Program-made: the position numbers and the translations under genes
The notes under the pieces: generated by a model
Seen by the model: the letters and a program-made list of their open reading frames with translations, nothing else
Database searches by the model: none
Told to the model about the DNA's origin: nothing
Shown: positions 3,639 through 16,730 of the stretch, one piece after another
Position numbering within the stretch: position 1 is the stretch's first letter
Layout: the number at the start of each line of letters is the position of its first letter
Virus record (IMG/VR): IMGVR_UViG_3300023174_000013
Span: 1-37,968 of that record
DNA: 37,968 bases
Reading direction: 5' to 3' (one strand)
DNA from: a virus
Taxonomy: Duplodnaviria; Caudoviricetes

Positions 3639-3741
3639 TCAAAGCAAAACAGTGCCGTTGTGCAGTACCATTCATTAGCCCAAACGACGAGGATGAATGG
3701 TGTTGGAAGTGCGGACTTCCTGTAGATAACGAGGAGACTTG

Positions 3742-5316
3742 ATGGCTGACCGTAAGATGCCAGACTTCGCCAATCCAGCGAATTACATTCATCCCGGCAA
3801 GAAGGACTCCCTTGCATCTTGGATGGCTTTCTTTGGCATGACCGAACAGGGGTCAGGCGATTACAACGGTCCTCGCGATTGGGCTAGAGCCGCAGCCGAT
3901 GAGCCGTTCCTAAATGCTTGTATCAAATTAAAGGCAATGAGCGCCGGTGCAGTTCCGTTGCGAGTGTATGTGCGCCAAGACCACAACCTTATTCCAGCAG
4001 ATTTGGCAAACGATGCGGATGCAGCCGAGTACCAAAAACTTCTAGACACAATTAACCCGTACAGCATGTCTGCGTCGGATTTCCGTGGCACGCTTGTTGC
4101 CAGCCTATCGGTGTATGGCGAAGCCTATGTACGCAAAGTGCGCGGTCGCCTTGGCGGTCCTCCTCAAGAGTTGTATCTCATCCGACCAATTGACATTAAG
4201 CCCCAAATGGGCAAAACATGGATTGAGTCATACGAGTACAACCCAGCGGGCGCAAAATCTCGCAATGCCGAAACCGAAATCATCCCTGCTAAAGACATTG
4301 TTGCTTTCAGACTGCCGGGTAACTTTGTTGACCCAACACGCGGTCTATCTCCGTTGTCATCCATCCGCAGAGAAGTAGAAGTTAGCGTGATGGCATCGGA
4401 GCATACAAATGCTCTGCTCCGAAATCTTGGCGTGCCAGTTGGGGCATGGGTAGCGCCAAAAGATAGCGACCTTACCGTGCAGGATCAGTCTGCCATTAAG
4501 AAAGTGCTTGCCGCATTGTCAGGACCAAAAAACGCAGGAAAGAGCGCAGTGTTGCCCGGCGGTCTTGAATGGCAACAGTTGGGCATCCCAGAACAAGACG
4601 CGCAGTACCTCAACGCCCGAAAAATTAGCCGCATGGCAATTGCGTCCGCCATGGGAATTCCATTGCAACTAGTTGGAGACGACGAGCATTCTGGCGTATA
4701 CCGCTCAGTGCGCGATGCAGAACAAGTGTTCTGGCGAAGGATGAAGAACGAGTTGGGATGGATTGCCGACATTCTTGATTCTTGGCTTACAACCGAGTTT
4801 GATAAAACTGGTCGCTTGACGGTTCAGTTTGATGTTTCCTCCATTGAGGCATTGCGACCTACGCCGCAAGAAGAACTAATGCTGTGGACGCAGTTGATGG
4901 ATCGCAGCGTGGTTACCCCAAACGAAGTTCGCGCTCATTTTGGGCTTGGCGCTCCGACTTCGTGGGGCGACACGCCGCTACTTAACGGTCAGCCAAAAGA
5001 AGGAGTTACGGGCAAAACCCCGCAGTCTATTACCGACATACCAGTCACTGGCACGGCAGTAGAAGAAGACCATGTGGTGGATGCGCCGCCAATTATGTCG
5101 TGGTTTGACCGAGAAACAAGGCTCTATGGTCGGCAAGAAGTGAAACAGTTCGTGCAGGGCGGATCACTAGATGCTGAGTCAATGGTAGGATTCCCCGTAA
5201 CCGAGACCGAGCAAAAGACTATTGAACTAGGGATTAAAAGGCGTTACAGTAGCAAGCAGATCGCTTACGGCGTTGAAGAAGACGGCTATAAAGGTTTGAG
5301 GGGAGTACAACCATGA
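3742..5316 (+). CDS. Portal protein, HK97 family, with C-terminal extension
   Basis: YGEAY, RGLSPL, NAGKSAVL, IASAMGIP, TPNEVR motifs; GAGGAG upstream; follows terL. Confidence 0.95.
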   Translation: MADRKMPDFANPANYIHPGKKDSLASWMAFFGMTEQGSGDYNGPRDWARAAADEPFLNACIKLKAMSAGAVPLRVYVRQDHNLIPADLANDADAAEYQKLLDTINPYSMSASDFRGTLVASLSVYGEAYVRKVRGRLGGPPQELYLIRPIDIKPQMGKTWIESYEYNPAGAKSRNAETEIIPAKDIVAFRLPGNFVDPTRGLSPLSSIRREVEVSVMASEHTNALLRNLGVPVGAWVAPKDSDLTVQDQSAIKKVLAALSGPKNAGKSAVLPGGLEWQQLGIPEQDAQYLNARKISRMAIASAMGIPLQLVGDDEHSGVYRSVRDAEQVFWRRMKNELGWIADILDSWLTTEFDKTGRLTVQFDVSSIEALRPTPQEELMLWTQLMDRSVVTPNEVRAHFGLGAPTSWGDTPLLNGQPKEGVTGKTPQSITDIPVTGTAVEEDHVVDAPPIMSWFDRETRLYGRQEVKQFVQGGSLDAESMVGFPVTETEQKTIELGIKRRYSSKQIAYGVEEDGYKGLRGVQP

Positions 5317-7433
5317 AGCACCTGAAGATTGCAGCAACCGCAGATGGTGGTCTTGTCATTGAGGGCTACGGCGTTCCCTTTGGCGGACCAATCAAAGGTC
5401 GCGACCTTCATGGGCAGTATTTCAGCAAGAAGACAGATTTTGCACTTGACTTGATTCCTGACGGGCAGCGACCGTTGCTGTATCAGCACGGTCTAGATTC
5501 GTCCGTAGACACGGCGGTCATTGGTCGCTGGGGCGTAAAGCGCATTGACGACGGCGGTGTATGGGTGCGCGCTCAGTTGGATGCCCGCTCCGAGTACATT
5601 AACGAGATTAAGGAACTTGTAGACAACGACGCGCTTGGCTTTTCCTCTGGAACCATGGGTCACCTTGTCAAAGTTGCGCCAAAAACTGGCGAAATTCTTA
5701 AGTGGGCGCTGGTTGAGTTGAGCCTTACCCCAAACCCAGCCAACCCAAATGCGTACATTGTTCGCGCAAATAAGTCCGCCGCAGCCCATGTAAAGTCTTT
5801 GTTCTCAACAAAGCACGGAGATCACGATCAGTCCGAGCACGGTAACTGGGCGCATAGTGGCGGTGGAGCAGATAACGGCGGCGACAAAGAAAAGTCTAAG
5901 CCGGGGTTTTACGGTTCAGATCATTGGGATAAGCCCGGAATGCCAAAAACCGTTGTCGTATCGGAAATGAGCCGCGACAAGTACGACCGAGCCATTCTTC
6001 CGATGCCAGACGAGTATAAAACTGATACATCCATGTCGGCTCAAGCATCAGGAAGTAGCGCATGGGCTGCTGTTACAATGGCAGATTCAAATGGCTGGCT
6101 GGACGAAAATGACGATGTTACAAAAGTGACATCGGGTCTAGACATTCCGTACATTCCCGCCGAAAACATTACAAGTCCAGAGTCGTGGCTCTTTGCCCTT
6201 GGGTTTGCAAACGGCACACTGAGTTTGGCTCCAAGCGAAGACGACAACGGTAATGTTATTGAAGCAATGAGCAGAAGCCGAGACAAAGAAGACTTTATTG
6301 CCCTGTCTGAAAGGCTGACTGATGTCAATTCCCATTCATCTGCGGCAACCTTTGACTCCCTTATTGACACTTGGGATGAATTTGGTCCGGGGGCAAGTAA
6401 GAAGATGCTCCGAGTCAAGCGTTCAACCAAGCATGGTGACCATGATCAGTCCGATCACGGGAACTGGGCGCACGGCGATGGTGGGGCGCGAGAATCTAAT
6501 CGCGTTGAGATGGAGCGACGCTCCACAGGGGCATGGCAAGAAAAGTTTGGCACAGTAGGAAACTACACTCCAAGTTCAAGAGTTGCTGGTATGGCGGCAA
6601 CCGTAGTTTCCGACGCAAAGAATGAGGCAGATCGTCGGTACGCGCAGGAGCGAGTTGATGCAGCCCTTCACATGGCTTCTCAATGGAATGCCAAAGGACC
6701 CGTCACAATGCCAAACGGTCAAGTGCCGTTGCACGGAAGGTCGGTAGAGGAAGAATTGGCTCGCAGGGTGGAATTTAGCCCTTCGGAAAGGGATAAAGAG
6801 TTCCATTTGAATTTGCTGGCAGACCTTAAAGGCGAAACGCCAGCCGCAGTTCAAGCAGAAATTGACATGGACAAGTTCAACGACTGGATGTCTGGCTACG
6901 ATGTGCCGGGCATGCCAAAGACTTTTCGCGTAAAGCGGTCAGTTAAACACGGCGACCACGACCAGTCCGAACACGGCAACTGGGCGCACGACGGCGGAAA
7001 CGATAAGACACAATCACAGGGGATGTTTGGAGACCGCCTAGACGAGTTAGATTTAAATGTGGCGACGGCGGTAGAAAGTTTCTTGACTTATTACACTCCT
7101 GCTCGCGACAGCATTGCAAGAGCCATCCTTCATTCAAGCAATGACCGTGAAACTGGTTTGTTGAGCCAAGCAAGTAACATGCTAGAAGAGGCAAGAACTG
7201 CTGCTGGGTTGCTACGCGGAGACGGTCCGGGGAAAGATTACAATGAATCCAAGCGAGAAAAATTGGTCCGAACGGTAGAAGATCGCTTGCAAGCCATGCG
7301 AAACAATTTGGATAAAGTGGCGGAACGACGCTCAGACTTTATGTACGACGCAGTTCTTAAAGAAGTTACGGCGGCTCAAGATTTCTTGACAAACGCAAGA
7401 ATTGACGCTGCGATTGCGGCAAAAAAGCCGTAA
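5313..7433 (+). CDS. HK97-type prohead protease (aa ~1-155) fused to three tagged modules of unknown function
   Basis: IEGYGVPF, LLYQHG (His), GFSSG (Ser), ELSLTPNPAN; then KHGDHDQSxHGNWAH at aa 167, 373 and 545. Confidence 0.92.
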   Translation: MKHLKIAATADGGLVIEGYGVPFGGPIKGRDLHGQYFSKKTDFALDLIPDGQRPLLYQHGLDSSVDTAVIGRWGVKRIDDGGVWVRAQLDARSEYINEIKELVDNDALGFSSGTMGHLVKVAPKTGEILKWALVELSLTPNPANPNAYIVRANKSAAAHVKSLFSTKHGDHDQSEHGNWAHSGGGADNGGDKEKSKPGFYGSDHWDKPGMPKTVVVSEMSRDKYDRAILPMPDEYKTDTSMSAQASGSSAWAAVTMADSNGWLDENDDVTKVTSGLDIPYIPAENITSPESWLFALGFANGTLSLAPSEDDNGNVIEAMSRSRDKEDFIALSERLTDVNSHSSAATFDSLIDTWDEFGPGASKKMLRVKRSTKHGDHDQSDHGNWAHGDGGARESNRVEMERRSTGAWQEKFGTVGNYTPSSRVAGMAATVVSDAKNEADRRYAQERVDAALHMASQWNAKGPVTMPNGQVPLHGRSVEEELARRVEFSPSERDKEFHLNLLADLKGETPAAVQAEIDMDKFNDWMSGYDVPGMPKTFRVKRSVKHGDHDQSEHGNWAHDGGNDKTQSQGMFGDRLDELDLNVATAVESFLTYYTPARDSIARAILHSSNDRETGLLSQASNMLEEARTAAGLLRGDGPGKDYNESKREKLVRTVEDRLQAMRNNLDKVAERRSDFMYDAVLKEVTAAQDFLTNARIDAAIAAKKP
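5811..5855 (+). repeat. Tag copy 1 (KHGDHDQSEHGNWAH)
   Basis: Read directly in the protease ORF. Confidence 0.97.
6429..6473 (+). repeat. Tag copy 2 (KHGDHDQSDHGNWAH)
   Basis: Read directly in the protease ORF. Confidence 0.97.
6945..6989 (+). repeat. Tag copy 3 (KHGDHDQSEHGNWAH)
   Basis: Read directly in the protease ORF. Confidence 0.97.
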
Positions 7434-7455
7434 CTGCGCGCCCCGAAACGGTCTC

Positions 7456-7496
7456 TGTTACACTCCTTGAGCCAGTTGCCTATGTGGGCAACTGGC
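7456..7496 (+). promoter_or_regulatory. Putative extended -10 promoter and 5' hairpin upstream of the capsid gene
   Basis: TG-T-TACACT at 7456-7464; GCCAGTTGCC/GGCAACTGGC 10-bp stem at 7471-7496 begins at the expected +1. Confidence 0.5.
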
Positions 7497-7612
7497 GCTT
7501 AGACGGAGAGACCGAAGACGCGAACGCTCACGCTGACGCTCCATCGGACGACCTGACGAAAGCATCGTTTAGGCAATGAACTTTCGGGTTCACAACTGAT
7601 AGGAGAATAATC

Positions 7613-8947
7613 GTGGCAGACAACGATTTCCTGTCGGAGAATGAGGTTGAGTCTCTCGTCGCTAAGGCTGTTACTAAGGCTGTAAAGAGCCTTAATACAG
7701 TTGACGAGGATGCCCGACCAACGGCTCCGACCAAGGCTGCGGGATTTAACCGTGGCTCTTATGGTCTTCCAAACCTTGGCGTTGCAGTTAAGTCCGCGTT
7801 CCGTGGGCAGACTGTTAACGGCGGTGAGTTTGAGCGAGACTTCTCACAGGCAGCAGCCGAAATTTTCGGCTACAAGGGCGCGGCTGGCGATGACTCGCTG
7901 ACTTCGCGCTCTATCGTTTGGGCTAAGACCCCAGAAGAGGCTCGCACTGTTCTTCACGCCATGGGCGAGGGGAAGCACGCGGCGCGAGTTGATTCAGCCA
8001 TTAAGGCTGCATCTGAGGGTACGACCACCGCTGGTGGATACCTCGTTCCCCCGCTCTACGCGCAGGATGCGTTCCAGTACGCTTTGGTTCCGAACATTGT
8101 GTTCCGCAACCTTCCCGGACTGACAACGATGCCTGTACGGACGAACCTTGTTTACCTGCCACGCGAAGACGCTCGTGCAGGTGGCGCAACGGCTGCTGAA
8201 GCCGGATCGCTCACCGCGCAGGATGTAACCTTCGCGCAGCAGTCAATTACCATCAAGAAGGCGTATGGCTATCGCGTATTCAGCAATGAATTGCTTGCCG
8301 ACGCTGATCCTTCGTGGAACGAGTTCATTACGAAGACCCTTCTTCGCGATGTGGCTCTTTTTGCGGATCAGCAGCATCTTGAGGGTACAGGTTCAAGCAA
8401 CGAAATTACGGGTCTTTCGGCAATCAGCGGCACGACTTCTGGTCCTTCACTTGGAGCCAACGGTCGCGCACTGACTTTTGATGACCTGTACGCTGCCATC
8501 TACAACCTGCGACTTGCCAATGTTGAGCCACAGAGCGCAACGGGCGCATGGATCATGCACCCGCGCACTCTCAACTCGCTGATGCAGTTGAAGGACAACA
8601 GCAATCAGTACATGCTCACGGCGGCTCAGGGCTACAACGCCCCGATGGCGCTGGCGGGCGGGTTTGCCAGCAGCAACGGACCAAAGGCTTCGTTGCTTGG
8701 TATTCCAGTGTATGTGTCCACGCAGATTGCAATTAACCGCACCACGGGTTCAAACAGCGACACTTCAAATGTGTACCTGCTTGATGCCTCTAAGGCGGTT
8801 CTGCTTGAGCGTCAGGGCATTGAACTGGCGTTTTCGGATCAGGTTGGTTTCGCGACCGACCAGTCCGCGTACCGAGCGATTGCGCGCCACGGCATTGCTG
8901 CCGTTCAGCCAACCGCTGTGGAAAAGATCACGGGTGTCCGCGCCTAA
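7613..8947 (+). CDS. Major capsid protein, HK97 fold, with ~131-aa N-terminal delta/scaffold region
   Basis: AGGYLVP, SNELLAD, WIMHP, LLGIPV motifs; AGGAG before GTG start. Confidence 0.97.
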   Translation: MADNDFLSENEVESLVAKAVTKAVKSLNTVDEDARPTAPTKAAGFNRGSYGLPNLGVAVKSAFRGQTVNGGEFERDFSQAAAEIFGYKGAAGDDSLTSRSIVWAKTPEEARTVLHAMGEGKHAARVDSAIKAASEGTTTAGGYLVPPLYAQDAFQYALVPNIVFRNLPGLTTMPVRTNLVYLPREDARAGGATAAEAGSLTAQDVTFAQQSITIKKAYGYRVFSNELLADADPSWNEFITKTLLRDVALFADQQHLEGTGSSNEITGLSAISGTTSGPSLGANGRALTFDDLYAAIYNLRLANVEPQSATGAWIMHPRTLNSLMQLKDNSNQYMLTAAQGYNAPMALAGGFASSNGPKASLLGIPVYVSTQIAINRTTGSNSDTSNVYLLDASKAVLLERQGIELAFSDQVGFATDQSAYRAIARHGIAAVQPTAVEKITGVRA

Positions 8948-8969
8948 TTAGGTACGGTTCTACCGTGAT

Positions 8970-9005
8970 GCAAGACCCTCAGGAGTTCGCTCCTGAGGGT
9001 CTTGC
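8970..9005 (+). terminator. Strong hairpin after the capsid gene (terminator or 3' stabiliser)
   Basis: Perfect 16-bp stem GCAAGACCCTCAGGAG/CTCCTGAGGGTCTTGC with TTCG loop; U-tract poor. Confidence 0.7.
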
Positions 9006-9007
9006 TC

Positions 9008-9013
9008 TATACT
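9008..9013 (+). promoter_or_regulatory. Putative -10 box for a leaderless transcript
   Basis: TATACT lies 6 nt before ATG 9020; no Shine-Dalgarno between. Confidence 0.5.
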
Positions 9014-9019
9014 GACCCC

Positions 9020-9661
9020 ATGGCAACTGCAATTGGCTCCTATGTCACCCTCGCCGTCGCTAAGGCGCGCCTTGGCATACCCTCCGCAGATACAACTGAC
9101 GACACGCTGCTCACGCGCCTGTGCGATCAGGTCAATGCGTACATTGAGTCCTACACGGGTACGGTTCTGGCTCCAATTGGCACGGCAACCTATACCTTTG
9201 ACGGTGACGAGCGAGTTAACGACCGTCAGTTACTCATTCCAAGGGGAGTTCGCACTATTACCCTGCTAGAGAACTCTGCATACACGGGCGGTCCGTACCA
9301 GACCATTCCTTCTTCTGACTATTTCTTGCGCCCTTCTAACGCCGACCTTAACCCCGGGTTCCCATTTACAGAGTTGGTTATGACTAATGTGCCAAGCGCG
9401 GGCAATCCGCTCCCAACCTTCAATCCCGGTTTGGATAACATCCGCATCACCGGCACTTGGGGCTGGGCTGCAATCCCGGATGAAATTAAAGAGGTTGCAG
9501 AGGTGATGCTCGTGCGCGCGTGGGCGGGGCGACAGGCTGGGCAGACAGATCAAATCGGGGTCAGCGAAGGGGGAATGCCAATCATTAGTCGCACAGTCTC
9601 CCTTCGCGACCGCGAAACCCTAAATAGGTTTAGACTAAAGCGACCCGACAGGATCGGCTAA
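9020..9661 (+). CDS. Head-tail connector/adaptor (HK97 gp6-like)
   Basis: YVTLAVAKARLG..DTTDDTLL...IESYTG, ITGTWGW..IPDEIK; follows capsid gene. Confidence 0.88.
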   Translation: MATAIGSYVTLAVAKARLGIPSADTTDDTLLTRLCDQVNAYIESYTGTVLAPIGTATYTFDGDERVNDRQLLIPRGVRTITLLENSAYTGGPYQTIPSSDYFLRPSNADLNPGFPFTELVMTNVPSAGNPLPTFNPGLDNIRITGTWGWAAIPDEIKEVAEVMLVRAWAGRQAGQTDQIGVSEGGMPIISRTVSLRDRETLNRFRLKRPDRIG

Positions 9662-9681
9662 AGAAAGTAGGAGGAGTTGAA

Positions 9682-9876
9682 ATGGCAACCAAGAAGCCAA
9701 TGTCATGGAACCCAGACGAGGTAATCAAGCGACCAGTTGACCCAGAGATTGCCGCCGAGCGCGCCAAGATTGGGCTGGGTAACGAGGAGCCGTCGCTTCC
9801 GCTTACTGAGGAGCAGAAGCGCGCACGCGCAGATCGCTTTGTCTGGAAGCCGGGAGACCTCCGCCGAGTTCGCTAA
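9682..9876 (+). CDS. Small hypothetical protein (64 aa), first gene of the effector cassette
   Basis: Strong AGGAGG RBS; TAATG coupling to the next gene; ends DRFVWKPGDLRRVR. Confidence 0.75.
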   Translation: MATKKPMSWNPDEVIKRPVDPEIAAERAKIGLGNEEPSLPLTEEQKRARADRFVWKPGDLRRVR

Positions 9877-10643
9877 TGCCCCGCCTGTTGGCGGTAGTCC
9901 GAGCGCGCAAGCACGCTGATCATGATCAGTCCGATCATGGGAATTGGGCTACGGGCAGGTTTGCTCAAGGCACACCAAGAGGCGGAAATGCAGTTACTGT
10001 TCTAGAGGCTATTCGCATGCAGTCTCCAACGGACAAGTACAAATCCAAAGTCTACGAAGCAGCAAATAAATTGTTTCCTACTGAAAAAGAAGGCAATGTC
10101 GCGCCGGTAGGTCCTCAAAGAAAAGATTTTGCTACTTATGAGGAATACGCCAAGGCGTTCAAGGAGTATGACAAAGCGTTTGATAAATACGCTCAGACCG
10201 CGATGGAGTATTTGGCTTCAGACACTGGTAGAGAACTGCTAGACGGCTCACTTAAGGGTGTAAAATCCTATGTCCAGCAAATTTGTACATCTGACTGGTT
10301 TATAGAAGCCTTTGGAACAGCATCACAAATGGGCGGAGTTCCGCCAGTCAAAGTAACAACGGCTGGGGACGAATCTGGTTCTTTCCGCATGAAAGCCGAC
10401 CGATTTGGAACTGTTTCAGAGACAAGTTTGCGATTTAACAAAGCGGCATTTACAAGAGAGCCAACACTACTGCATGAGATTGCTCACTTTGCAACTGCTG
10501 CCAGCGCAACGGCAACATACGAGCCGCACGGGGTAGAGTATGCAAAGAACCTTGTATTCATTTGCGAACAAGTAGTTGGTTCTGAATTTGCAGAACTAAT
10601 GCGTACTTCGCTTATAGAGGAGGGCGTGCCAATTGACAACTGA
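9876..10643 (+). CDS. Tagged zincin-like (HExxH) putative metallopeptidase
   Basis: Tag KHADHDQSDHGNWA at aa 12; TLLHEIAH followed by PHGVEY. Confidence 0.8.
   Translation: MPRLLAVVRARKHADHDQSDHGNWATGRFAQGTPRGGNAVTVLEAIRMQSPTDKYKSKVYEAANKLFPTEKEGNVAPVGPQRKDFATYEEYAKAFKEYDKAFDKYAQTAMEYLASDTGRELLDGSLKGVKSYVQQICTSDWFIEAFGTASQMGGVPPVKVTTAGDESGSFRMKADRFGTVSETSLRFNKAAFTREPTLLHEIAHFATAASATATYEPHGVEYAKNLVFICEQVVGSEFAELMRTSLIEEGVPIDN
9909..9950 (+). repeat. Tag copy 4 (KHADHDQSDHGNWA)
   Basis: Read directly in ORF 9876..10643. Confidence 0.97.
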
Positions 10644-13600
10644 CAAAGACGAACTGTTTGAGTGCGTTATTCCTTTGCCCGACGCGCTGATCCCTGAACA
10701 AATGGATGAGCCAACCAAGTCTCTTAAGCACGGTGACCATGATCAGTCCGACCATGGAAACTGGGCGCACGGTGGCGGAGATGGAACCAAGGAAAACCCC
10801 ATCAGGACTAGCAGCGTTGAAGAGGCAGCGCGTGCGCTTGGGGAGGGCAAGCATGTTGAGTTGCAAAGCCCAGATCAGGTAGCAACCCTCCTAGATCGGC
10901 TTAACGAGTTGGCAAAAGAGGCGGAGGCGGCTGGCACAAAAGCAAAAAACATTGACCTGTGCAATGTGACAGTTCCGGGCACAAACTTGTTCTGCGTTGA
11001 GTCCAAAGGCATCCCTAGGGTAGAAATGCCACAACTAAAAGGAATCCCAAACAGCGGCAGCCCAGCCTCAGACTTGCCAGCAGACAAGCGTGGCGAGGTG
11101 GACATCACCGAGGCGTATCTTGAGCAACTACGGTCATCTGGAGTTTCCTTGACCGAAGATGAGGCGCTTGCCAGCCATCTAAAGGCGACACAAAATGAGT
11201 TGAATGGCGGCAAAGTTGCAGGGATTATGGCTGCCGCACGCGCTGGACAACTTGACCTGAACCAACCAATTGTGGTGTCTAGGGATGGCTACATCGTAGA
11301 CGGTCATCACCGATGGGCAGCAAAAGTTGCCCTTGAGCATGACGGCATTGACGACCCAGAGACCGACATGAAGATTCCTGTAGTCCGCGTAGACCAAGAC
11401 ATTCTTGACATCCTTGAGTCATCCAAGCAGTTCGCTGCCGACATGGGATTGCCACAAGTTGCAGTCAAGTCTCTAAAGCACGGAGACCATGACCAGTCTG
11501 ACCATGGGAACTGGGCAACTGGCGGCGCTGACCATCAGTACACAGGAAAGCCACGATCCGCCGCCTCTCGCGCGCGCATGAACGAGCATACAGACCGTTA
11601 TGGAGACCCAGAGCGCAGGGAGTCAGGGCGGCGTTCAGGCAGCAGAAACCTTGGTCGCGAAGTGACAGAAATGGAAATTGTTGCGCTGGAGTCTTACAAA
11701 GGCGGAGGGTACGGGGAAATAAACCGCTTCTTGCGAGGAACACAAGAAGGAGACGATTGGACAAAAGACCGAATTGACGCGGTAAAGTCATTGGCGCTTC
11801 CGACTACTGAACCGATGACGGTAACGCGCATGATGCCGTTGTTTGCCGTTGAGGGGATTGCCGCTGGGCAAATTTATGAAGACAAAGGCTTTATGTCAAC
11901 GGGAAAGGGAGACCACCCTGCACAATTCTTTCATGGATACCCAGTACAAATGCAAATTGAGGTTCCTGCTGGAACTCCCGTCGTTGACTTTGACAATTTC
12001 TCTGGCTTAGATGGGTGGGGCAACATTGAGCGCGAAGTGACGCTAATGCCAAACACCCAATTAGTTATTGACCGAGTTGAGCAGCGGGATTGGAACCGAG
12101 ACTTTGGACCAACGGAAACAGACGGTCTCAAAGTCTACGCTCACCTTGTTTCGTCAACCAAATCCCTTAAACACGGAGATCACGACCAAACAGACCACGG
12201 CAACTGGGCGCACGGAAACGCCGCCATTTCGGCACTTTCTGCAACAGACAAAAAGGAAGGAGAGAAGTACCTAATTGAAAGGTATCCGCCAGATGATCTC
12301 AACCGCGACTCTGACCTAGGAAAGAAATTAGGTTTGACAAGTTTGGAGTGGGCAGCCGCAGATCACTACCGAACTCAGGGCTACATGGAAATAAACAACC
12401 TTCTTCGTGGCGTTGGAAGCGATTGGGGCATGGAGTTTGCCCCGGCAGACATTCGCTCAGTTCAACTTCTGGATGAAGCAATGGATAAAAGTACAATCAA
12501 AAACTTTGAGACGGTGTATCGCGGAACAAGCATGCTTGCCAGCAAAATGGACACTTTCTTGTCTAGTTTAGAAGTAGGAGGCGTGTACACCGACCCATCC
12601 TTTGTGTCTACTTCTAGAGGCAAAGACATTGCCGAGTCGTTTGCAACAGACCGACCCCCTGATGAGGCAAAAGAAAACAGGGCAAGTTTAATGTGGGAAA
12701 TTGTGTTGCCGCCGGGAGCCTCGGCTTTGGACATGCAATCCCTGTTTCCTAGTTTCGGGTCTAACGAAGAAGAAGTTCTTCTGGACAGAGACACTCATCT
12801 ACGCATTCTTGCAAAGGAGAGTGCTGGCGTAACACTTGATGGCGAGCCAGTGTACCGAATCAAAGCAATTGCAATTCCAACGGCAACCAAGTCTCTCAAG
12901 CATGGCGATCATGACCAGTCCGATCATGGGAGTTGGGCGCACGGGTCAGCAAATAGACCGACGCTATCTAACGAAGATAAGAACAAAGCCGAAGCAGCCC
13001 TGACGAAGAATAATGGGGGTTGGGTTGGCGGAAATTATCAACATGCGTTCCAGTTGACTGACCTAGAGGTTGCAGCCGCCCAGCACTATCGCGCATTTGG
13101 CTTTGCCCAGATGAACAGGATGATGCGGGGGCAAGAAAGCCTTACTGGGCTTGCATTTGTTCCAGAAATTGTTCGTGGCGCAGAGTTGCTAGAAGACGCA
13201 ATGTCAAAAGCATCTTTGCAAAAAAATACAACTGTGTACCGGGGCATGCACCTTCTATCTGATGAAGCCCAGAAGTTCTTGGCTGGCATTAAATCGGGAG
13301 ATGTATACACCGACCCAGCGTTTACCTCCACATCCAAATCGGAAACAATTGCCATGAAATTTGCCACGGAGAGATACTCAGAGGAGCGACAAGAAAACAG
13401 GACGGGTATTGTTTGGCAAATCTTTGCTCCAAGTGGCACTTCGGCTTTGGACTTTGACAAATTGTTTGCCGGGACCACAAGTCAAGAACAAGAAATTCTG
13501 CTTGCGCCAAACACCCATTTCAAGATTCTCGGCACACAACTAGACAGTTACACCTCTACGGGTGAGCCAATAATCCGAGTCATGGCTACCGTCATCCCAA

Positions 13601-16275
13601 CGGCAACCAAGTCCATGAAGCACGGCGACCATGATCAGTCCGACCATGGCAACTGGGCGGACGGGATAGTTCCCCTTGCAAAGACCCCCATTGAGCAAGT
13701 AGATGCGCTTCGGTCATGGTCCTCTAACTCCTACAACATGATTAACGGAGCCTTGCGTAACCCAGACACACTTGGTGCTCAAGAGCGCGGTGGCTTGCGC
13801 GAGCCAGTTCAAAAGATGCAAGACCAGTTAGATAAGTTGTTTGCGGGTGTTCCCAAGACTACAAAAGAGATGACGGTGTATCGCGGCGCAACTGGCGACT
13901 GGGTAAAGAATTTAGTTGACCAATACGAAGCCACAATTGAAAAAGGGCGTGTGGGGTACAGGGAGACTGGGGTAATGCCGCAGTTTAGCCAAGACCGCTT
14001 TACCGACCAAGGGTTTACCTCAACTACGCCAGACAAAGACATTGCGCTTCGTTTCTCTGGTACTGGCTTAAGCGGTGGTGGGTACTATACGGGCGAAGGC
14101 AGGGCAATCTTTGAGATCAACATTCCAGAGGGAAGCAGCGTTGTAAATGTTGAGGAGTTTGCCAACGAGTTTGGTGGGTTTGCCAAATTTGCAGCAGAGG
14201 AGAAAGAGTACCTTCTCCCGCGCGGGAGTACCTTTGAAGTAGCCGATGTGACCCCAAGTGAGGAGCAGTTCGGCAGTCAAGGACCTTTGTACTACACCAT
14301 TAGGCTAGACCTTGTTCCGTCGTCAACTAAATCCGTCAAGCACGCCGACCACGACCAGTCCGATCACGGCAACTGGGCGGACGGCGGTAGAAATGGGCAG
14401 AGCCACAATGTTGTTCAACTTGGGCATCCGTACCCAACTAATCCCCCGCACGGATCAACCGGGTACAGAGAGCCAATGTCATCTGTTGCCCTACCAAATG
14501 GGCGGAGCGTGGAGATTCAATCTGGGGGAGATGCCGTATCGGGAGGTTACAACGGGTATTTCGTTATGCACAACAAAGCAAACGGTGAGCGCATGGGGTA
14601 TCTGGACTACCAGTCAAGCGGAAGCGGGGATGATAGGCGCGTACAAATTGCTATGGTTGAAACCACCGAAGGTTATCGTGGGCAAGGGGTTGCAACAGCA
14701 TTGCTCGCTCGCTTGGTTGCTGAGTTCCCAGAAACAAAAATTGAACCGGGATCAACAACTGAAGATGGCGGTCGCTGGTGGCAAAGCGTGAAGCCATTAT
14801 TGCCAGCGTCCTCTAAGTCTTACAAGCACGCGGACCATGACCAGTCCGAACATGGTAACTGGGCAGACGGGGAAAGGTACACAGCAGAGGCAAGAAACAA
14901 CGCAGAACGGGCTTTAACTCATTACAGCATTGACGGATACCAAAGAATCAACTCTTACTTGCGTAAAACAGACATGAGTCAAGATGAATGGCAAACACAG
15001 GAGTTTGATCCAAAGCCAGCAATTAAAGAAATAGATTCTTTGTTTGAGTCCGCAGCGCCGCTCAAAGAGCCTGTCACCGTATTTCGCGGCATAGACAGCG
15101 AAGTAGCAGAAAAGATGACTTGGAAGCAAGGGGATACCTATACCGATGCCGCCTTTATGTCTACTTCACTGCGCGAGGAAGTGTCCGAACGGTTTACTGA
15201 CTATGGCGGCAAGGGAGCCTACATTATGCAAATTGAAGTTCCTGCTGGCACAACTGCGCTGACCCCAAGCATGTTTGCAACATTGGTGGACGAGGAAGAA
15301 GTCCTCCTTAACAGAGGAACAACACTGCAAATTACAGGAACGGCGTTGAAAGACAATTTTAATTACATCTACGCAACAGTTGTTCCGACAACTAAGTCTC
15401 TAAAGCATGGCGACCACGACCAAACAGATCACGGCAACTGGGCAAGGGGTTTTGATGCGCCAAGTTCAACAGAAATTAGTCGCAGCCCAAAGGAATCTCG
15501 CACAACAACTCCTTTGTGGTATGTGGAACGGGATGCTGGAGTTGGATCGGATAGACAAAGCCAGTTAAACAACATGCAATTTGGCACACAGCGAACCCTG
15601 CACGAGGCGTTAGATGCGTATACCCATTGGAAAACCGACCAATGGTCAGATGACGGCAGTTCAATTGCGTTTCACGCTGCATTAAACGAGCGATTGCGCG
15701 AAGGAATGAATCGCGGCAAAGCAGTTGAAGCAACCGCAGCGGAATTTGCCGAAGAAGGAGACGACCAGTTAGGTAAAACGCTTTATTCTGGTTTTATGCA
15801 TTTGGACGCTTTAACAAGAGATAGCGTAATGAAAGAAGACACTGTTGTTACCAGAGCCATGTCTCCAGTGTTTGATCGTCAAGAGTTGGAAGCAGCCATT
15901 TCAGGCGGCTCTTTGAACTTGTACGGTCAAGAGATCACTGCTGGCGCGGTATTTTCAGACGCTGGCTTTGTGAGTACATCATTGGACACTACGGGGTCAT
16001 CTACTCAGTACTTTGGGCAAAACTGGGAAGGGGCAGAGGGTTTGGAAGATTCTCAAATTCCAACGAGCGTTCGGTGGATGATTACCGTTCCTGCTGGTGC
16101 TCCAGCCGCTGATTTGCGTTCTGTTGGGTTCTCTAGCCAACACGGTGAGCAGGAAGTAATTTTGCCAAGAAACACACATTTTCAAGTGGACTCATACGAT
16201 GTCAAAATGCCGCCAACTGGCGGAGGGGCAGCATCCGTAACCATTCGGGCAACCGTGATCCCAACACACAAGTAA
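10633..16275 (+). CDS. 1880-aa tagged polyprotein: ParB/Srx-like domain, six VIP2/C2-like ADP-ribosyltransferase domains, one GNAT domain
   Basis: Eight tags (K codons at 10726, 11476, 12169, 12898, 13618, 14338, 14824, 15403); IVDGHHRW; six sets of V-x-R, FxST and ExE; YRGQGVATALL; GAGGAGG 9 nt before TTG. Confidence 0.93.
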   Translation: MTTDKDELFECVIPLPDALIPEQMDEPTKSLKHGDHDQSDHGNWAHGGGDGTKENPIRTSSVEEAARALGEGKHVELQSPDQVATLLDRLNELAKEAEAAGTKAKNIDLCNVTVPGTNLFCVESKGIPRVEMPQLKGIPNSGSPASDLPADKRGEVDITEAYLEQLRSSGVSLTEDEALASHLKATQNELNGGKVAGIMAAARAGQLDLNQPIVVSRDGYIVDGHHRWAAKVALEHDGIDDPETDMKIPVVRVDQDILDILESSKQFAADMGLPQVAVKSLKHGDHDQSDHGNWATGGADHQYTGKPRSAASRARMNEHTDRYGDPERRESGRRSGSRNLGREVTEMEIVALESYKGGGYGEINRFLRGTQEGDDWTKDRIDAVKSLALPTTEPMTVTRMMPLFAVEGIAAGQIYEDKGFMSTGKGDHPAQFFHGYPVQMQIEVPAGTPVVDFDNFSGLDGWGNIEREVTLMPNTQLVIDRVEQRDWNRDFGPTETDGLKVYAHLVSSTKSLKHGDHDQTDHGNWAHGNAAISALSATDKKEGEKYLIERYPPDDLNRDSDLGKKLGLTSLEWAAADHYRTQGYMEINNLLRGVGSDWGMEFAPADIRSVQLLDEAMDKSTIKNFETVYRGTSMLASKMDTFLSSLEVGGVYTDPSFVSTSRGKDIAESFATDRPPDEAKENRASLMWEIVLPPGASALDMQSLFPSFGSNEEEVLLDRDTHLRILAKESAGVTLDGEPVYRIKAIAIPTATKSLKHGDHDQSDHGSWAHGSANRPTLSNEDKNKAEAALTKNNGGWVGGNYQHAFQLTDLEVAAAQHYRAFGFAQMNRMMRGQESLTGLAFVPEIVRGAELLEDAMSKASLQKNTTVYRGMHLLSDEAQKFLAGIKSGDVYTDPAFTSTSKSETIAMKFATERYSEERQENRTGIVWQIFAPSGTSALDFDKLFAGTTSQEQEILLAPNTHFKILGTQLDSYTSTGEPIIRVMATVIPTATKSMKHGDHDQSDHGNWADGIVPLAKTPIEQVDALRSWSSNSYNMINGALRNPDTLGAQERGGLREPVQKMQDQLDKLFAGVPKTTKEMTVYRGATGDWVKNLVDQYEATIEKGRVGYRETGVMPQFSQDRFTDQGFTSTTPDKDIALRFSGTGLSGGGYYTGEGRAIFEINIPEGSSVVNVEEFANEFGGFAKFAAEEKEYLLPRGSTFEVADVTPSEEQFGSQGPLYYTIRLDLVPSSTKSVKHADHDQSDHGNWADGGRNGQSHNVVQLGHPYPTNPPHGSTGYREPMSSVALPNGRSVEIQSGGDAVSGGYNGYFVMHNKANGERMGYLDYQSSGSGDDRRVQIAMVETTEGYRGQGVATALLARLVAEFPETKIEPGSTTEDGGRWWQSVKPLLPASSKSYKHADHDQSEHGNWADGERYTAEARNNAERALTHYSIDGYQRINSYLRKTDMSQDEWQTQEFDPKPAIKEIDSLFESAAPLKEPVTVFRGIDSEVAEKMTWKQGDTYTDAAFMSTSLREEVSERFTDYGGKGAYIMQIEVPAGTTALTPSMFATLVDEEEVLLNRGTTLQITGTALKDNFNYIYATVVPTTKSLKHGDHDQTDHGNWARGFDAPSSTEISRSPKESRTTTPLWYVERDAGVGSDRQSQLNNMQFGTQRTLHEALDAYTHWKTDQWSDDGSSIAFHAALNERLREGMNRGKAVEATAAEFAEEGDDQLGKTLYSGFMHLDALTRDSVMKEDTVVTRAMSPVFDRQELEAAISGGSLNLYGQEITAGAVFSDAGFVSTSLDTTGSSTQYFGQNWEGAEGLEDSQIPTSVRWMITVPAGAPAADLRSVGFSSQHGEQEVILPRNTHFQVDSYDVKMPPTGGGAASVTIRATVIPTHK
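10726..15444 (+). repeat. Tag copies 5-12 dispersed through the polyprotein, each preceded by (T/V/S)-K-S-(L/M/V/Y)
   Basis: Spacings 750, 693, 729, 720, 720, 486, 579 nt, all in frame. Confidence 0.97.
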
Positions 16276-16289: not shown

Positions 16290-16730
16290 ATGTCATTTGT
16301 AGATTCCAGTATCGCCGCCGCAGTAGCCGCACGGGTAGCCACCGTGACGGTTGCCTCCACCGTTGCCGCCATTCGTGGGGCTACTGCGGCTCCTCCCGAC
16401 AAATTGCAAGTTTTGCCCTATGCCGTAGTCCTTCCGAGTTCAGACCGAGTTGAGCATTACGCTTCTGCGCGCAAGGTGACCTGCTCGTTTACGGTTCGGC
16501 TGTACCTTGGCAGCCCCCAAGATTTTGCCCGCCGATTTCCTGCCCTTCACACCTATCGGACGGCGCTCCGAGACATCTTTGTGGGGGATGTGACCCTTGG
16601 CGGTCTGGTAGACTTGGCGACAGTTGATTCCACACGCATTGGTGCAGACATGTATGCTGGGGATGAGTTCGTGACAGTGGAAGCCACGGTCACCTGTGTG
16701 AAAGGGGAAAGCCTTGATTACCAAGCCTGA
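16290..16730 (+). CDS. Probable tail terminator/completion protein
   Basis: 146 aa, LPYAVV...TVRLYL...DVTLGGLV pattern; lies before the tail tube gene. Confidence 0.65.
   Translation: MSFVDSSIAAAVAARVATVTVASTVAAIRGATAAPPDKLQVLPYAVVLPSSDRVEHYASARKVTCSFTVRLYLGSPQDFARRFPALHTYRTALRDIFVGDVTLGGLVDLATVDSTRIGADMYAGDEFVTVEATVTCVKGESLDYQA

What the first reader, a model, noticed from the sequence alone, without database searches (positions are those of the whole stretch)
10633..16275. Polyprotein with six divergent, apparently intact R-S-E ADP-ribosyltransferase domains
Seen: modules at 11476, 12169, 12898, 13618, 14824 and 15403 each show an N..(L/M)R helix, the Arg strand (VTR, VYRG, VYRG, VYRG, VFRG, VTR), FMSTG/FVSTS/FTSTS/FTSTT/FMSTS/FVSTS, and ERE/EEE/EQE/EKE/EEE/EQE. 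Known: this is the VIP2/C2/T4 Alt-type signature, and ExE usually marks Arg-directed enzymes; T4 Alt is packaged and injected. Single ART domains on MuF-type or polyvalent phage proteins are known. Six in one ORF of a 38-kb phage is exceptional to my knowledge. Inference: the domains hit different targets, such as host takeover factors, defence proteins or competing phages.
Basis: partly seen in the sequence, partly recalled or inferred. Interest (0 to 1): 0.88.

Follow-up and report, generated by a model that had tools for sequence, protein, structure and literature searches.

The report
Tagged six-transferase phage head polyprotein
A small uncultured phage strings six intact-looking ADP-ribosyltransferases and two other enzyme domains into one protein. 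Each domain opens with the same short peptide tag that also marks the head protease, so the chain is likely packed into the capsid, cut apart and injected as a swappable kit for modifying host proteins, though none of those steps has been measured.

Summary
Observation confirmed. All six modules pass the Pfam ART cut-off singly, keep R-S-ExE, are 23-43% identical and show dN/dS 0.07-0.28.

The 1880-aa protein has eight modules: six ARTs, a ParB/Srx-like domain and a GNAT. Each opens with K-[SA]-x-K|H-(G/A)-D-H-D-Q-x-x-H-G-x-W. The tag occurs 12 times, only in the head module, three times on the HK97-type prohead protease. In kin, whole modules are gained, lost and reordered tag to tag (0-6 ARTs in six complete cassettes).

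A tag profile finds 788 protein clusters. The residue before the tag is fixed within a protein (133 of 139) but differs between proteins (K, F, L, Y, E, R), as a genome-specific protease site would.

Six ARTs is not a record: a 12-copy H-Y-D protein is published, and I found another six-ART and a separate nine-ART R-S-E protein. Multi-copy R-S-E polyproteins and this tag were not found in print.

This scan has reported tag-punctuated head polyproteins on other DNA, with other tags. Cutting, packaging, injection, activity and distinct targets are all inferred. New variant of a known kind; interest 0.62.

The parts
10633..16275 (+). Cargo polyprotein, 1880 aa: 31-aa leader plus eight tag-opened modules of 17-31 kDa
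10726..11475 (+). M1: tag + ParB/Srx-like domain (DGHHRW); related to a domain of F116/H66 polyvalent structural proteins
   Evidence: phrog_2859 E 2e-22; tblastn about 33% identity; Atlas ParB clusters at 0.85-0.86, a lead only; no Pfam hit
11476..12168 (+). M2: tag + ART (VTR, FMSTG, ERE)
   Evidence: dN/dS 0.07-0.17 in 3 pairs
12169..12897 (+). M3: tag + ART (VYRG, FVSTS, EEE)
12898..13617 (+). M4: tag + ART (VYRG, FTSTS, EQE); closest paralogue M3, 43% identical
13618..14337 (+). M5: tag + ART (VYRG, FTSTT, EKE)
   Evidence: dN/dS 0.22-0.28 in 2 pairs
14338..14823 (+). M6: tag + GNAT acetyltransferase
   Evidence: PF00583 E 1e-5, over cut-off
14824..15402 (+). M7: tag + ART (VFRG, FMSTS, EEE); modelled, Vis/VIP2/C3 fold
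15403..16272 (+). M8: tag + ART (VTR, FVSTS, EQE)
5313..7433 (+). HK97-type (S78) prohead protease, aa 1-158, with a C-terminal tail of three tagged modules of unknown family (tags at 5811, 6429, 6945)
   Evidence: PF04586 E 0.0013, phrog_80 E 3e-9; H59 and S111 invariant in 38 sequences; model's best matches are herpesvirus assemblins, E >= 0.005; tags
7613..8947 (+). Major capsid protein with a leader of about 131 aa ending S-A-I-K|A, the predicted maturation site
   Evidence: PF05065; K or R at this column in 43 of 43 homologues, Ala two residues before in 97%
9876..10643 (+). Stand-alone tagged HEXXH metallohydrolase (tag at 9909), directly upstream of and overlapping the polyprotein start
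   Evidence: TIGR04338 E 3e-11, below cut-off; tag
9002..9661 (+). Head-tail adaptor; conserved left border of the variable cargo cassette
   Evidence: phrog_442; 64-95% identical in kin
16290..16730 (+). Conserved gene forming the right border of the cassette
   Evidence: 78-99% identical in 8 loci; no family hit

Best explanation
The gene encodes eight enzyme modules, six of them R-S-ExE ADP-ribosyltransferases, joined by one repeated peptide tag; the chain is likely taken into the prohead, likely cut by the phage's own HK97-type protease between the lysine and the histidine of each tag, and the freed 17-31 kDa enzymes are predicted to enter the host with the DNA and to ADP-ribosylate arginines of host proteins. 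Shown: the fold and catalytic residues, purifying selection, the tag at every junction and on the protease, and exchange of whole modules at tags. Inferred, with my odds: enzymes active 0.85; cut at K|H 0.8; packaged 0.8; ejected 0.65; partly different targets 0.5. The conserved part of the tag lies after the predicted cut, so it would stay on each freed module; most likely it is the loading or ejection address, but its partner is unknown. The tag DNA likely also serves as the homology patch for module swapping.
For: (a) The tag occurs 12 times in the genome, all in the head module: 8 in the polyprotein, 3 on the protease, 1 on the next gene upstream; 0 matches in 2000 shuffles. K-[SA]-x-K occurs 8 times in the protein, all 8 at junctions. 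(b) HK97's capsid protein is cut at K103/S104 (PMC10275583 passage). Here the capsid leader ends A-x-K|A, with K or R in 43 of 43 homologues, matching the [SA]-x-K before the tags. (c) In 139 tag-bearing proteins with two or more tags, the residue before the tag is uniform in 133 (5000 shuffles: mean 99.6, max 108), and 10 are uniformly non-K (shuffles 0.13, max 3). In the non-K proteins that position agrees in 83% of within-protein pairs against 18% and 8% for nearby P2 and P4, so it is not just copied flank. Two proteins have mostly hydrophobic-x-E|H, like the T4 gp21 sites ITE and LTE in Alt (PMC5694885 passages). (d) By protease family of the locus: S78 K in 64 of 66 tags, XkdF K in 72 of 72, Mu-I F in 7 of 8; P3 is S/A in 60 of 66 S78 tags and V/M/I/L in 71 of 72 XkdF tags; two XkdF-phage scaffold proteins are enriched in [VLIM]-x-K (12 vs 5.0, p 0.001; 11 vs 4.3, p 0.0015). 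(e) Tags also sit on portal, MuF and protease proteins, all head components. (f) All 77 cassette modules of the clade are 300 aa or shorter, median 231. (g) 38 of 41 ART modules keep R, S and E, and all 40 complete ones have E-x-E; dN/dS is 0.07-0.28 in 8 ART pairs. (h) 11 of 12 internal ends of DNA similarity to three relatives fall at tags, and a contig of run X5 joins 15402 to 14338, both tag boundaries. (i) Precedent: T4 Alt is packaged, processed and injected (PMC9958956 and PMC5512222 passages).
Against: Nothing was measured: no virion, cut, activity or target data, and the host is unknown. [SA]-x-K is not enriched in this phage's own capsid leader (3 vs 2.1, p 0.36); F sites are not enriched in the two Mu-I scaffolds; a control, the tape measure, also showed [VLIM]-x-K at p 0.016. 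The protease-family comparison rests on few independent lineages, and all F|H loci except the L027 contig were fetched with a pattern that required F. The T4 capsid-targeting sequence lies before the cut and is removed; here the conserved part lies after it. Most related proteases carry no tag (1 of 39 had one), and L110, with a 92% identical capsid protein, has five tags and no ART, so the system is accessory. The ART profile was built from the window's own modules, which favours motif-bearing hits; three of the eight dN/dS pairs have dS above 2.
Confidence: 0.58

Rival explanations
1. Same packaging and cutting, but the six ARTs are a hedge rather than a division of labour: promiscuous arginine ARTs (or NAD+ consumers) with overlapping targets, kept diverse because different hosts, target alleles or host ADP-ribosylhydrolases defeat different copies.
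For: All complete modules in the clade have the same E-x-E chemistry (40 of 40). Copy number runs from 0 to 6 in six complete cassettes, and no ART type is in all of them. T4 Alt is listed as promiscuous (PMC3102197 Table 1 passage).
Against: Orthologous ART types stay 90-94% identical between phages while paralogues are 23-43% identical, which suggests each type keeps its own constraint. The nine-ART protein mixes E-x-E (4) and Q-x-E (5) modules, which points to different acceptors there.
Confidence: 0.2
2. The modules act in the producing cell late in infection, for example by shielding head assembly from defences that sense portal or terminase, or by excluding competing phages; they are not injected.
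For: The gene is in the late operon. PMC9503650 section 27 names this alternative for head-linked ARTs. A 38-kb genome in an HK97-type head may leave little room for cargo (inference).
Against: It does not explain why each module carries a site fitted to a protease that, in the known systems, acts inside the prohead, or why the tag is fused to protease, portal and MuF proteins.
Confidence: 0.12
3. The tag is only a linker or a DNA recombination anchor; the protein stays whole, inside or on the virion.
For: Breakpoints fall at tags. Synonymous differences between the 12 tags (0.46) are somewhat below saturation (0.56), with a few codons clearly conserved.
Against: Most tag codons are at synonymous saturation while the residues are fixed. 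The tag also heads stand-alone genes. The preceding residue follows the genome, not the tag. In L158 an unrelated-looking DNA version encoding YSEDQERDDHGR[FW] sits on the orthologue of M1, behind the same K-S-x-K.
Confidence: 0.1

Closest known systems
Polyvalent proteins of phages and conjugative elements (Iyer et al. 2017, PMC5512222; sections 8 and 9 read whole, other passages seen)
   Same: Large late-gene proteins that combine ART, GNAT, ParB-like and metallopeptidase domains and are predicted to be injected; multi-copy ARTs are known, up to 12 in a P. aeruginosa prophage protein.
   Different: [quoted passage not shown] It proposes self-cutting by internal metallopeptidases; in the passages read it describes no repeated tag keyed to the prohead protease.
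Phage T4 Alt and internal proteins IPI-III with the capsid-targeting sequence, processed by gp21 (PMC9958956, PMC5694885; passages seen)
   Same: R-S-E ART packaged in the head, trimmed by the prohead protease at a short P3-x-P1 site and injected; a short peptide addresses cargo to the prohead.
   Different: Alt has one ART domain in a T4-type head. The T4 signal lies before the cut and is discarded; this tag lies after the predicted cut, repeats inside one chain, and sits in an HK97-type head with a lysine site.
Alt/VIP2 ARTs fused to MuF, portal or head proteins (PMC9503650, section 27 read whole; BFVD matches)
   Same: Same ART family and head-module context; the best structural matches include MuF-, portal- and head-morphogenesis fusions.
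   Different: Those are anchored by a structural domain; this protein has no MuF or portal domain and carries six ARTs separated by a tag.
Arginine-specific R-S-ExE ARTs such as Vis, VIP2 and C2-I (PMC3102197 passages)
   Same: Fold and R-S-ExE triad.
   Different: At most 27% identical in the structural matches; no secretion, binding or translocation part; encoded in a phage head module, so a bacterial target is expected.

Membership tests
R-S-E (Alt/VIP2) ADP-ribosyltransferase | Profile match above the curated cut-off | tested here: met
   6 of 6 modules over the PF03496 cut-off
R-S-E (Alt/VIP2) ADP-ribosyltransferase | Arg in strand 1, Ser in strand 2, catalytic Glu in strand 5 | tested here: met
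   6 of 6 in the window; 38 of 41 in the clade
R-S-E (Alt/VIP2) ADP-ribosyltransferase | ART fold | tested here: met
   1 of 6 modules modelled; best match Vis, E 7e-12
Arginine-specific ART | E-x-E before and at the catalytic Glu | tested here: met
   6 of 6; rule from PMC3102197
Arginine-specific ART | NAD+-dependent transfer to arginine | not testable with these tools
   Needs an assay
Polyvalent proteins (Iyer 2017) | Several biochemically unrelated effector domains in one chain, among virion genes | tested here: met
   ART, GNAT and ParB-like domains in the head module
Polyvalent proteins (Iyer 2017) | ART domains of the H-Y-D (ART-PolyVal) clade | tested here: not met
   All six are R-S-E; no PF18760 hit in P0001. 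Other tag-bearing proteins do carry PF18760
T4 CTS / internal-protein system | N-terminal targeting peptide before the cut, removed by the protease | tested here: not met
   The conserved part lies after the predicted cut and repeats internally
T4 CTS / internal-protein system | Cargo junction fits the site preference of the phage's own prohead protease | tested here: inconclusive
   Fits the capsid leader end and varies by genome, but is not enriched in the leader; no cut measured
T4 CTS / internal-protein system | Packaged in the head and ejected into the host | not testable with these tools
   Needs virion proteomics
MuF-fused effectors | MuF domain in the same chain | tested here: not met
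   No PF04233 match in P0001 or in the other 29 window ORFs scanned
HK97-type (S78) prohead protease | Assemblin-like domain with conserved His and Ser | tested here: met
   phrog_80 E 3e-9; H59 and S111 invariant in 38 sequences; best fold matches are herpesvirus proteases, though weak; the Pfam score, 19.3, is just under the cut-off of 21

The most novel reading that the evidence does not exclude
A portable, protease-keyed address tag (H-x-x-H-D-Q-x-x-H-G-x-W, interchangeable with Y-x-x-D-Q-x-R-D-x-x-G-R-F) works across unrelated head types (HK97/S78, XkdF, Mu-I and probably T4-like), with only the residue before it re-tuned to each phage's protease. It stays on every freed module and routes it into and out of the capsid. 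On this platform two phage lineages have separately built batteries of six to nine Alt-type transferases, each with its own host target, giving a programmable multi-target ADP-ribosylation strike at the moment of infection.
Probability: 0.25. Interest if true: 0.85.

Novelty: new variant of a known kind. Interest (0 to 1): 0.62.

Why it matters
If true, a 38-kb phage spends about 15% of its genome on an injected enzyme kit whose contents change between near-identical relatives. That gives a direct readout of what hosts are defending and a set of divergent arginine ARTs with unknown bacterial targets. It would extend Alt-type ARTs into polyvalent-style polyproteins, where the 2017 survey did not find them. 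It would also show how an HK97-type head, with no T4-style core, loads protein cargo, and supply a short tag whose loading function can be tested with a reporter. The tag itself marks domain boundaries in at least 788 protein clusters, most of whose modules have no known family.

Tried and rejected
A single-chain model of the protease with its first tag left the tag at pLDDT below 50, as it was in the M7 model: no support and no verdict on binding.

Cultured phages with the tag: two 23-residue tblastn searches of 50,697 phage records found nothing; the search is too insensitive to show absence.

Host: the GTDB scan gave 6 loci, of which only L096 (an Actinomycetes bin, XkdF-type head) held an in-frame tag. 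The only taxon-named protease homologue is from a Dehalococcoidia bin at 43% identity. The host is not assigned.

Expression: no RNA holder listed. Runs X3 and X4 held only short pieces.

PADLOC: no match for 12 modules. No tRNA. No ADP-ribosylhydrolase or Macro domain among 30 ORFs scanned with Pfam; smaller ORFs were not scanned.

DUF7211 (lead from e1-5954365): no Pfam family matched the tag within the modules scanned, and NCBIfam gave none for either tag form.

One search used three out-of-frame protease references; its table was discarded and redone. The careful tree did not finish, and the quick tree was used.

A DNA-level repeat explanation was considered and given low odds.

Literature searches for the tag or for multi-R-S-E polyproteins: 1 paper; 3; 3,050 hold a term; the 25 listed were irrelevant and none held the four longer motifs; 0; 20 listed; 0; 0; 0. 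The supplements of PMC5512222 could not be read and may list this motif or such proteins; those of PMC9503650 were not asked for.
Full report
Setting. The window is a complete phage genome with a 127-nt terminal repeat. Its head module runs small and large terminase, portal (3739-5316), HK97-type prohead protease (5313-7433), capsid protein (7613-8947) and adaptor (9002-9661); then come a HEXXH gene (9876-10643), the 1880-aa ORF (10633-16275) and the tail genes. The two runs that hold the whole stretch are freshwater metagenomes and may be its source. The host is unknown.

Each of the six modules passes the PF03496 cut-off alone. The one module modelled, M7, matches Vis, Certhrax, VIP2 and C3 and many phage head-associated ARTs. 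The modules are 23-43% identical outside the tag columns. In 20 cassette ORFs of the clade (77 modules), 41 modules matched a profile built from the window's six. Of these, 38 keep R, S and E; one is cut by a contig end and two have Ala for Ser; all 40 complete ones have E-x-E. That profile favours motif-bearing hits. dN/dS is 0.07-0.28 in 8 orthologous ART pairs, three with dS above 2. E-x-E marks arginine specificity in tested pairs (PMC3102197, passages).

Its six start coordinates are the lysines of a repeated tag, K-[SA]-x-K|H-(G/A)-D-H-D-Q-(S/T)-(D/E)-H-G-(N/S)-W-A. The protein has eight such tags and eight modules: a ParB/Srx-like domain, four ARTs, a GNAT and two more ARTs. The tag occurs 12 times in six-frame translation, only in the head module: eight times here, three in the protease tail, and once at the start of the HEXXH gene. 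It is conserved mainly as peptide: synonymous differences are 0.46 against 0.56 expected at saturation, though a few codons are clearly below it. K-[SA]-x-K occurs eight times in the protein, each at a junction.

Kin show a variable cassette. Between the adaptor and the next conserved gene, six complete cassettes carry 6, 5, 1, 0, 4 and 5 ARTs, although flanking or capsid proteins are 78-99% identical, the adaptor 64-88%. Eleven of 12 internal ends of DNA similarity to three relatives fall at tags (alignments over 150 nt). A contig of run X5 places M6 directly after M7, joined at tag boundaries. Recombination through tag homology and selection for whole modules would both give this pattern. 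In L158 the orthologue of M1 and other modules open with YSEDQERDDHGR[FW] behind the same K-S-x-K, mixed with one HDQ tag in the same chain, so the two tag forms appear interchangeable.

How exceptional is six? A search of longer proteins with M4 gave 14 hits, including P0007 with six ARTs and two with five. A profile of 96 tags found 788 clusters at 50% identity (E <= 0.001). Among the 140 new ones of the 150 listed, 114 had no ART by my profile and one, P0056, had nine tags and nine R-S-E ARTs, four with E-x-E and five with Q-x-E. They are 20-27% identical to the window's modules at best and form their own side of a quick tree (SH-aLRT 99, with a long-branch warning), which suggests a separate expansion. 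[quoted passage not shown] Single Alt/VIP2 ARTs on MuF and head proteins are common (PMC9503650 section 27, read whole).

Evidence that the junction is a protease site. HK97's capsid protein is cut at K103/S104 (PMC10275583, passage). The leader here ends S-A-I-K|A, with K or R in 43 of 43 homologues and Ala at P3 in 97%. The protease keeps His59 and Ser111 in 38 of 38 sequences. Across 139 proteins with two or more tags, the residue before the tag is uniform in 133 (shuffles 99.6, max 108) and uniformly non-K in 10 (F, L, Y, E, R; shuffles 0.13), while neighbouring P2 and P4 vary. Sorted by the protease of the locus, S78 heads have K (64 of 66; the two exceptions are a mis-started match and an apparent chance match), XkdF heads K (72 of 72) and Mu-I heads F (7 of 8); P3 is small in S78 loci and hydrophobic in XkdF loci. 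Against this: the site is not enriched in this phage's own leader (p 0.36) or in the Mu-I scaffolds, a control protein gave p 0.016, few lineages are independent, and most F loci were selected for F.

Mechanism. Most likely the chain is made late, recruited into the prohead, cut at each K|H and ejected as 17-31 kDa enzymes that modify host arginines at the start of infection, as T4 Alt does (PMC9958956 and PMC5694885, passages). All clade modules are 300 aa or shorter, and 226 of 272 tag spacings in the wider set are 350 aa or less, which would suit passage through a tail. Of the 140 proteins, 69 were scanned with Pfam; they carry GNAT, NUDIX, zeta-like, ART-PolyVal, 2H, MuF, portal and XkdF domains, and many match nothing. 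Unlike the T4 signal, the conserved peptide would remain on the cargo. Its partner could not be tested. Whether the six ARTs have different targets is open: stable orthologous types favour it; identical chemistry and free gain and loss favour a hedge.

Novelty. It works like T4 Alt plus the capsid-targeting system and is built like a polyvalent protein, but it fails a defining feature of each (tag position; ART clade), so I do not file it under either. I found no description of this tag or of multi-R-S-E polyproteins in searches; the supplements of PMC5512222 could not be read and may bear on this. Earlier notes of this scan describe tag-punctuated head polyproteins with other tags in many other genomes; these are unchecked notes and not independent support. 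Verdict: real feature, new variant of a known kind, interest 0.62.

Noticed in passing
P0056 (2201 aa): Nine tags and nine R-S-E ARTs, four with E-x-E and five with Q-x-E; apparently a separate expansion from the window's clade.
   Followed up: partly
P0055 (7059 aa) and P0057 (3023 aa): 20 and 10 tag-profile stretches in one chain, no ART by my profile; P0055 was not scanned with Pfam.
   Followed up: no
P0194, P0149, P0070, P0097, P0129: Same tag preceded uniformly by E, E, L, Y and R; P0194 has four ART-PolyVal domains. Their head proteases were not examined.
   Followed up: partly
L158:2865-7355 and 7301-9976 (same contig as L005): YSEDQERDDHGR[FW] replaces the HDQ tag on modules including the M1 orthologue, with one HDQ tag in the same chain.
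   Followed up: partly
L027:536-9281: 101-kb phage with a Mu-I protease; F|H tags head zeta-toxin-like, NUDIX-bearing and DUF4258 modules, with a DUF2283 domain starting the next gene.
   Followed up: partly
L035:8063-8593 and L005:4706-5233: A ferritin/Dps-like gene sits inside the cargo cassette of some kin, without a tag.
   Followed up: no
window:5811-7430: The three tagged modules on the protease match no Pfam or PADLOC family and vary between kin (1-3 tags).
   Followed up: partly
window:9682-9876: 64-aa ORF between the adaptor and the tagged HEXXH gene, no PHROG match; a candidate small partner or inhibitor, untested.
   Followed up: no
L025:9948-10178 and many XkdF-type loci: A 75-90 aa acidic peptide gene that is little more than the tag plus a D/E-rich tail (cluster C4, 19 members).
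   Followed up: no
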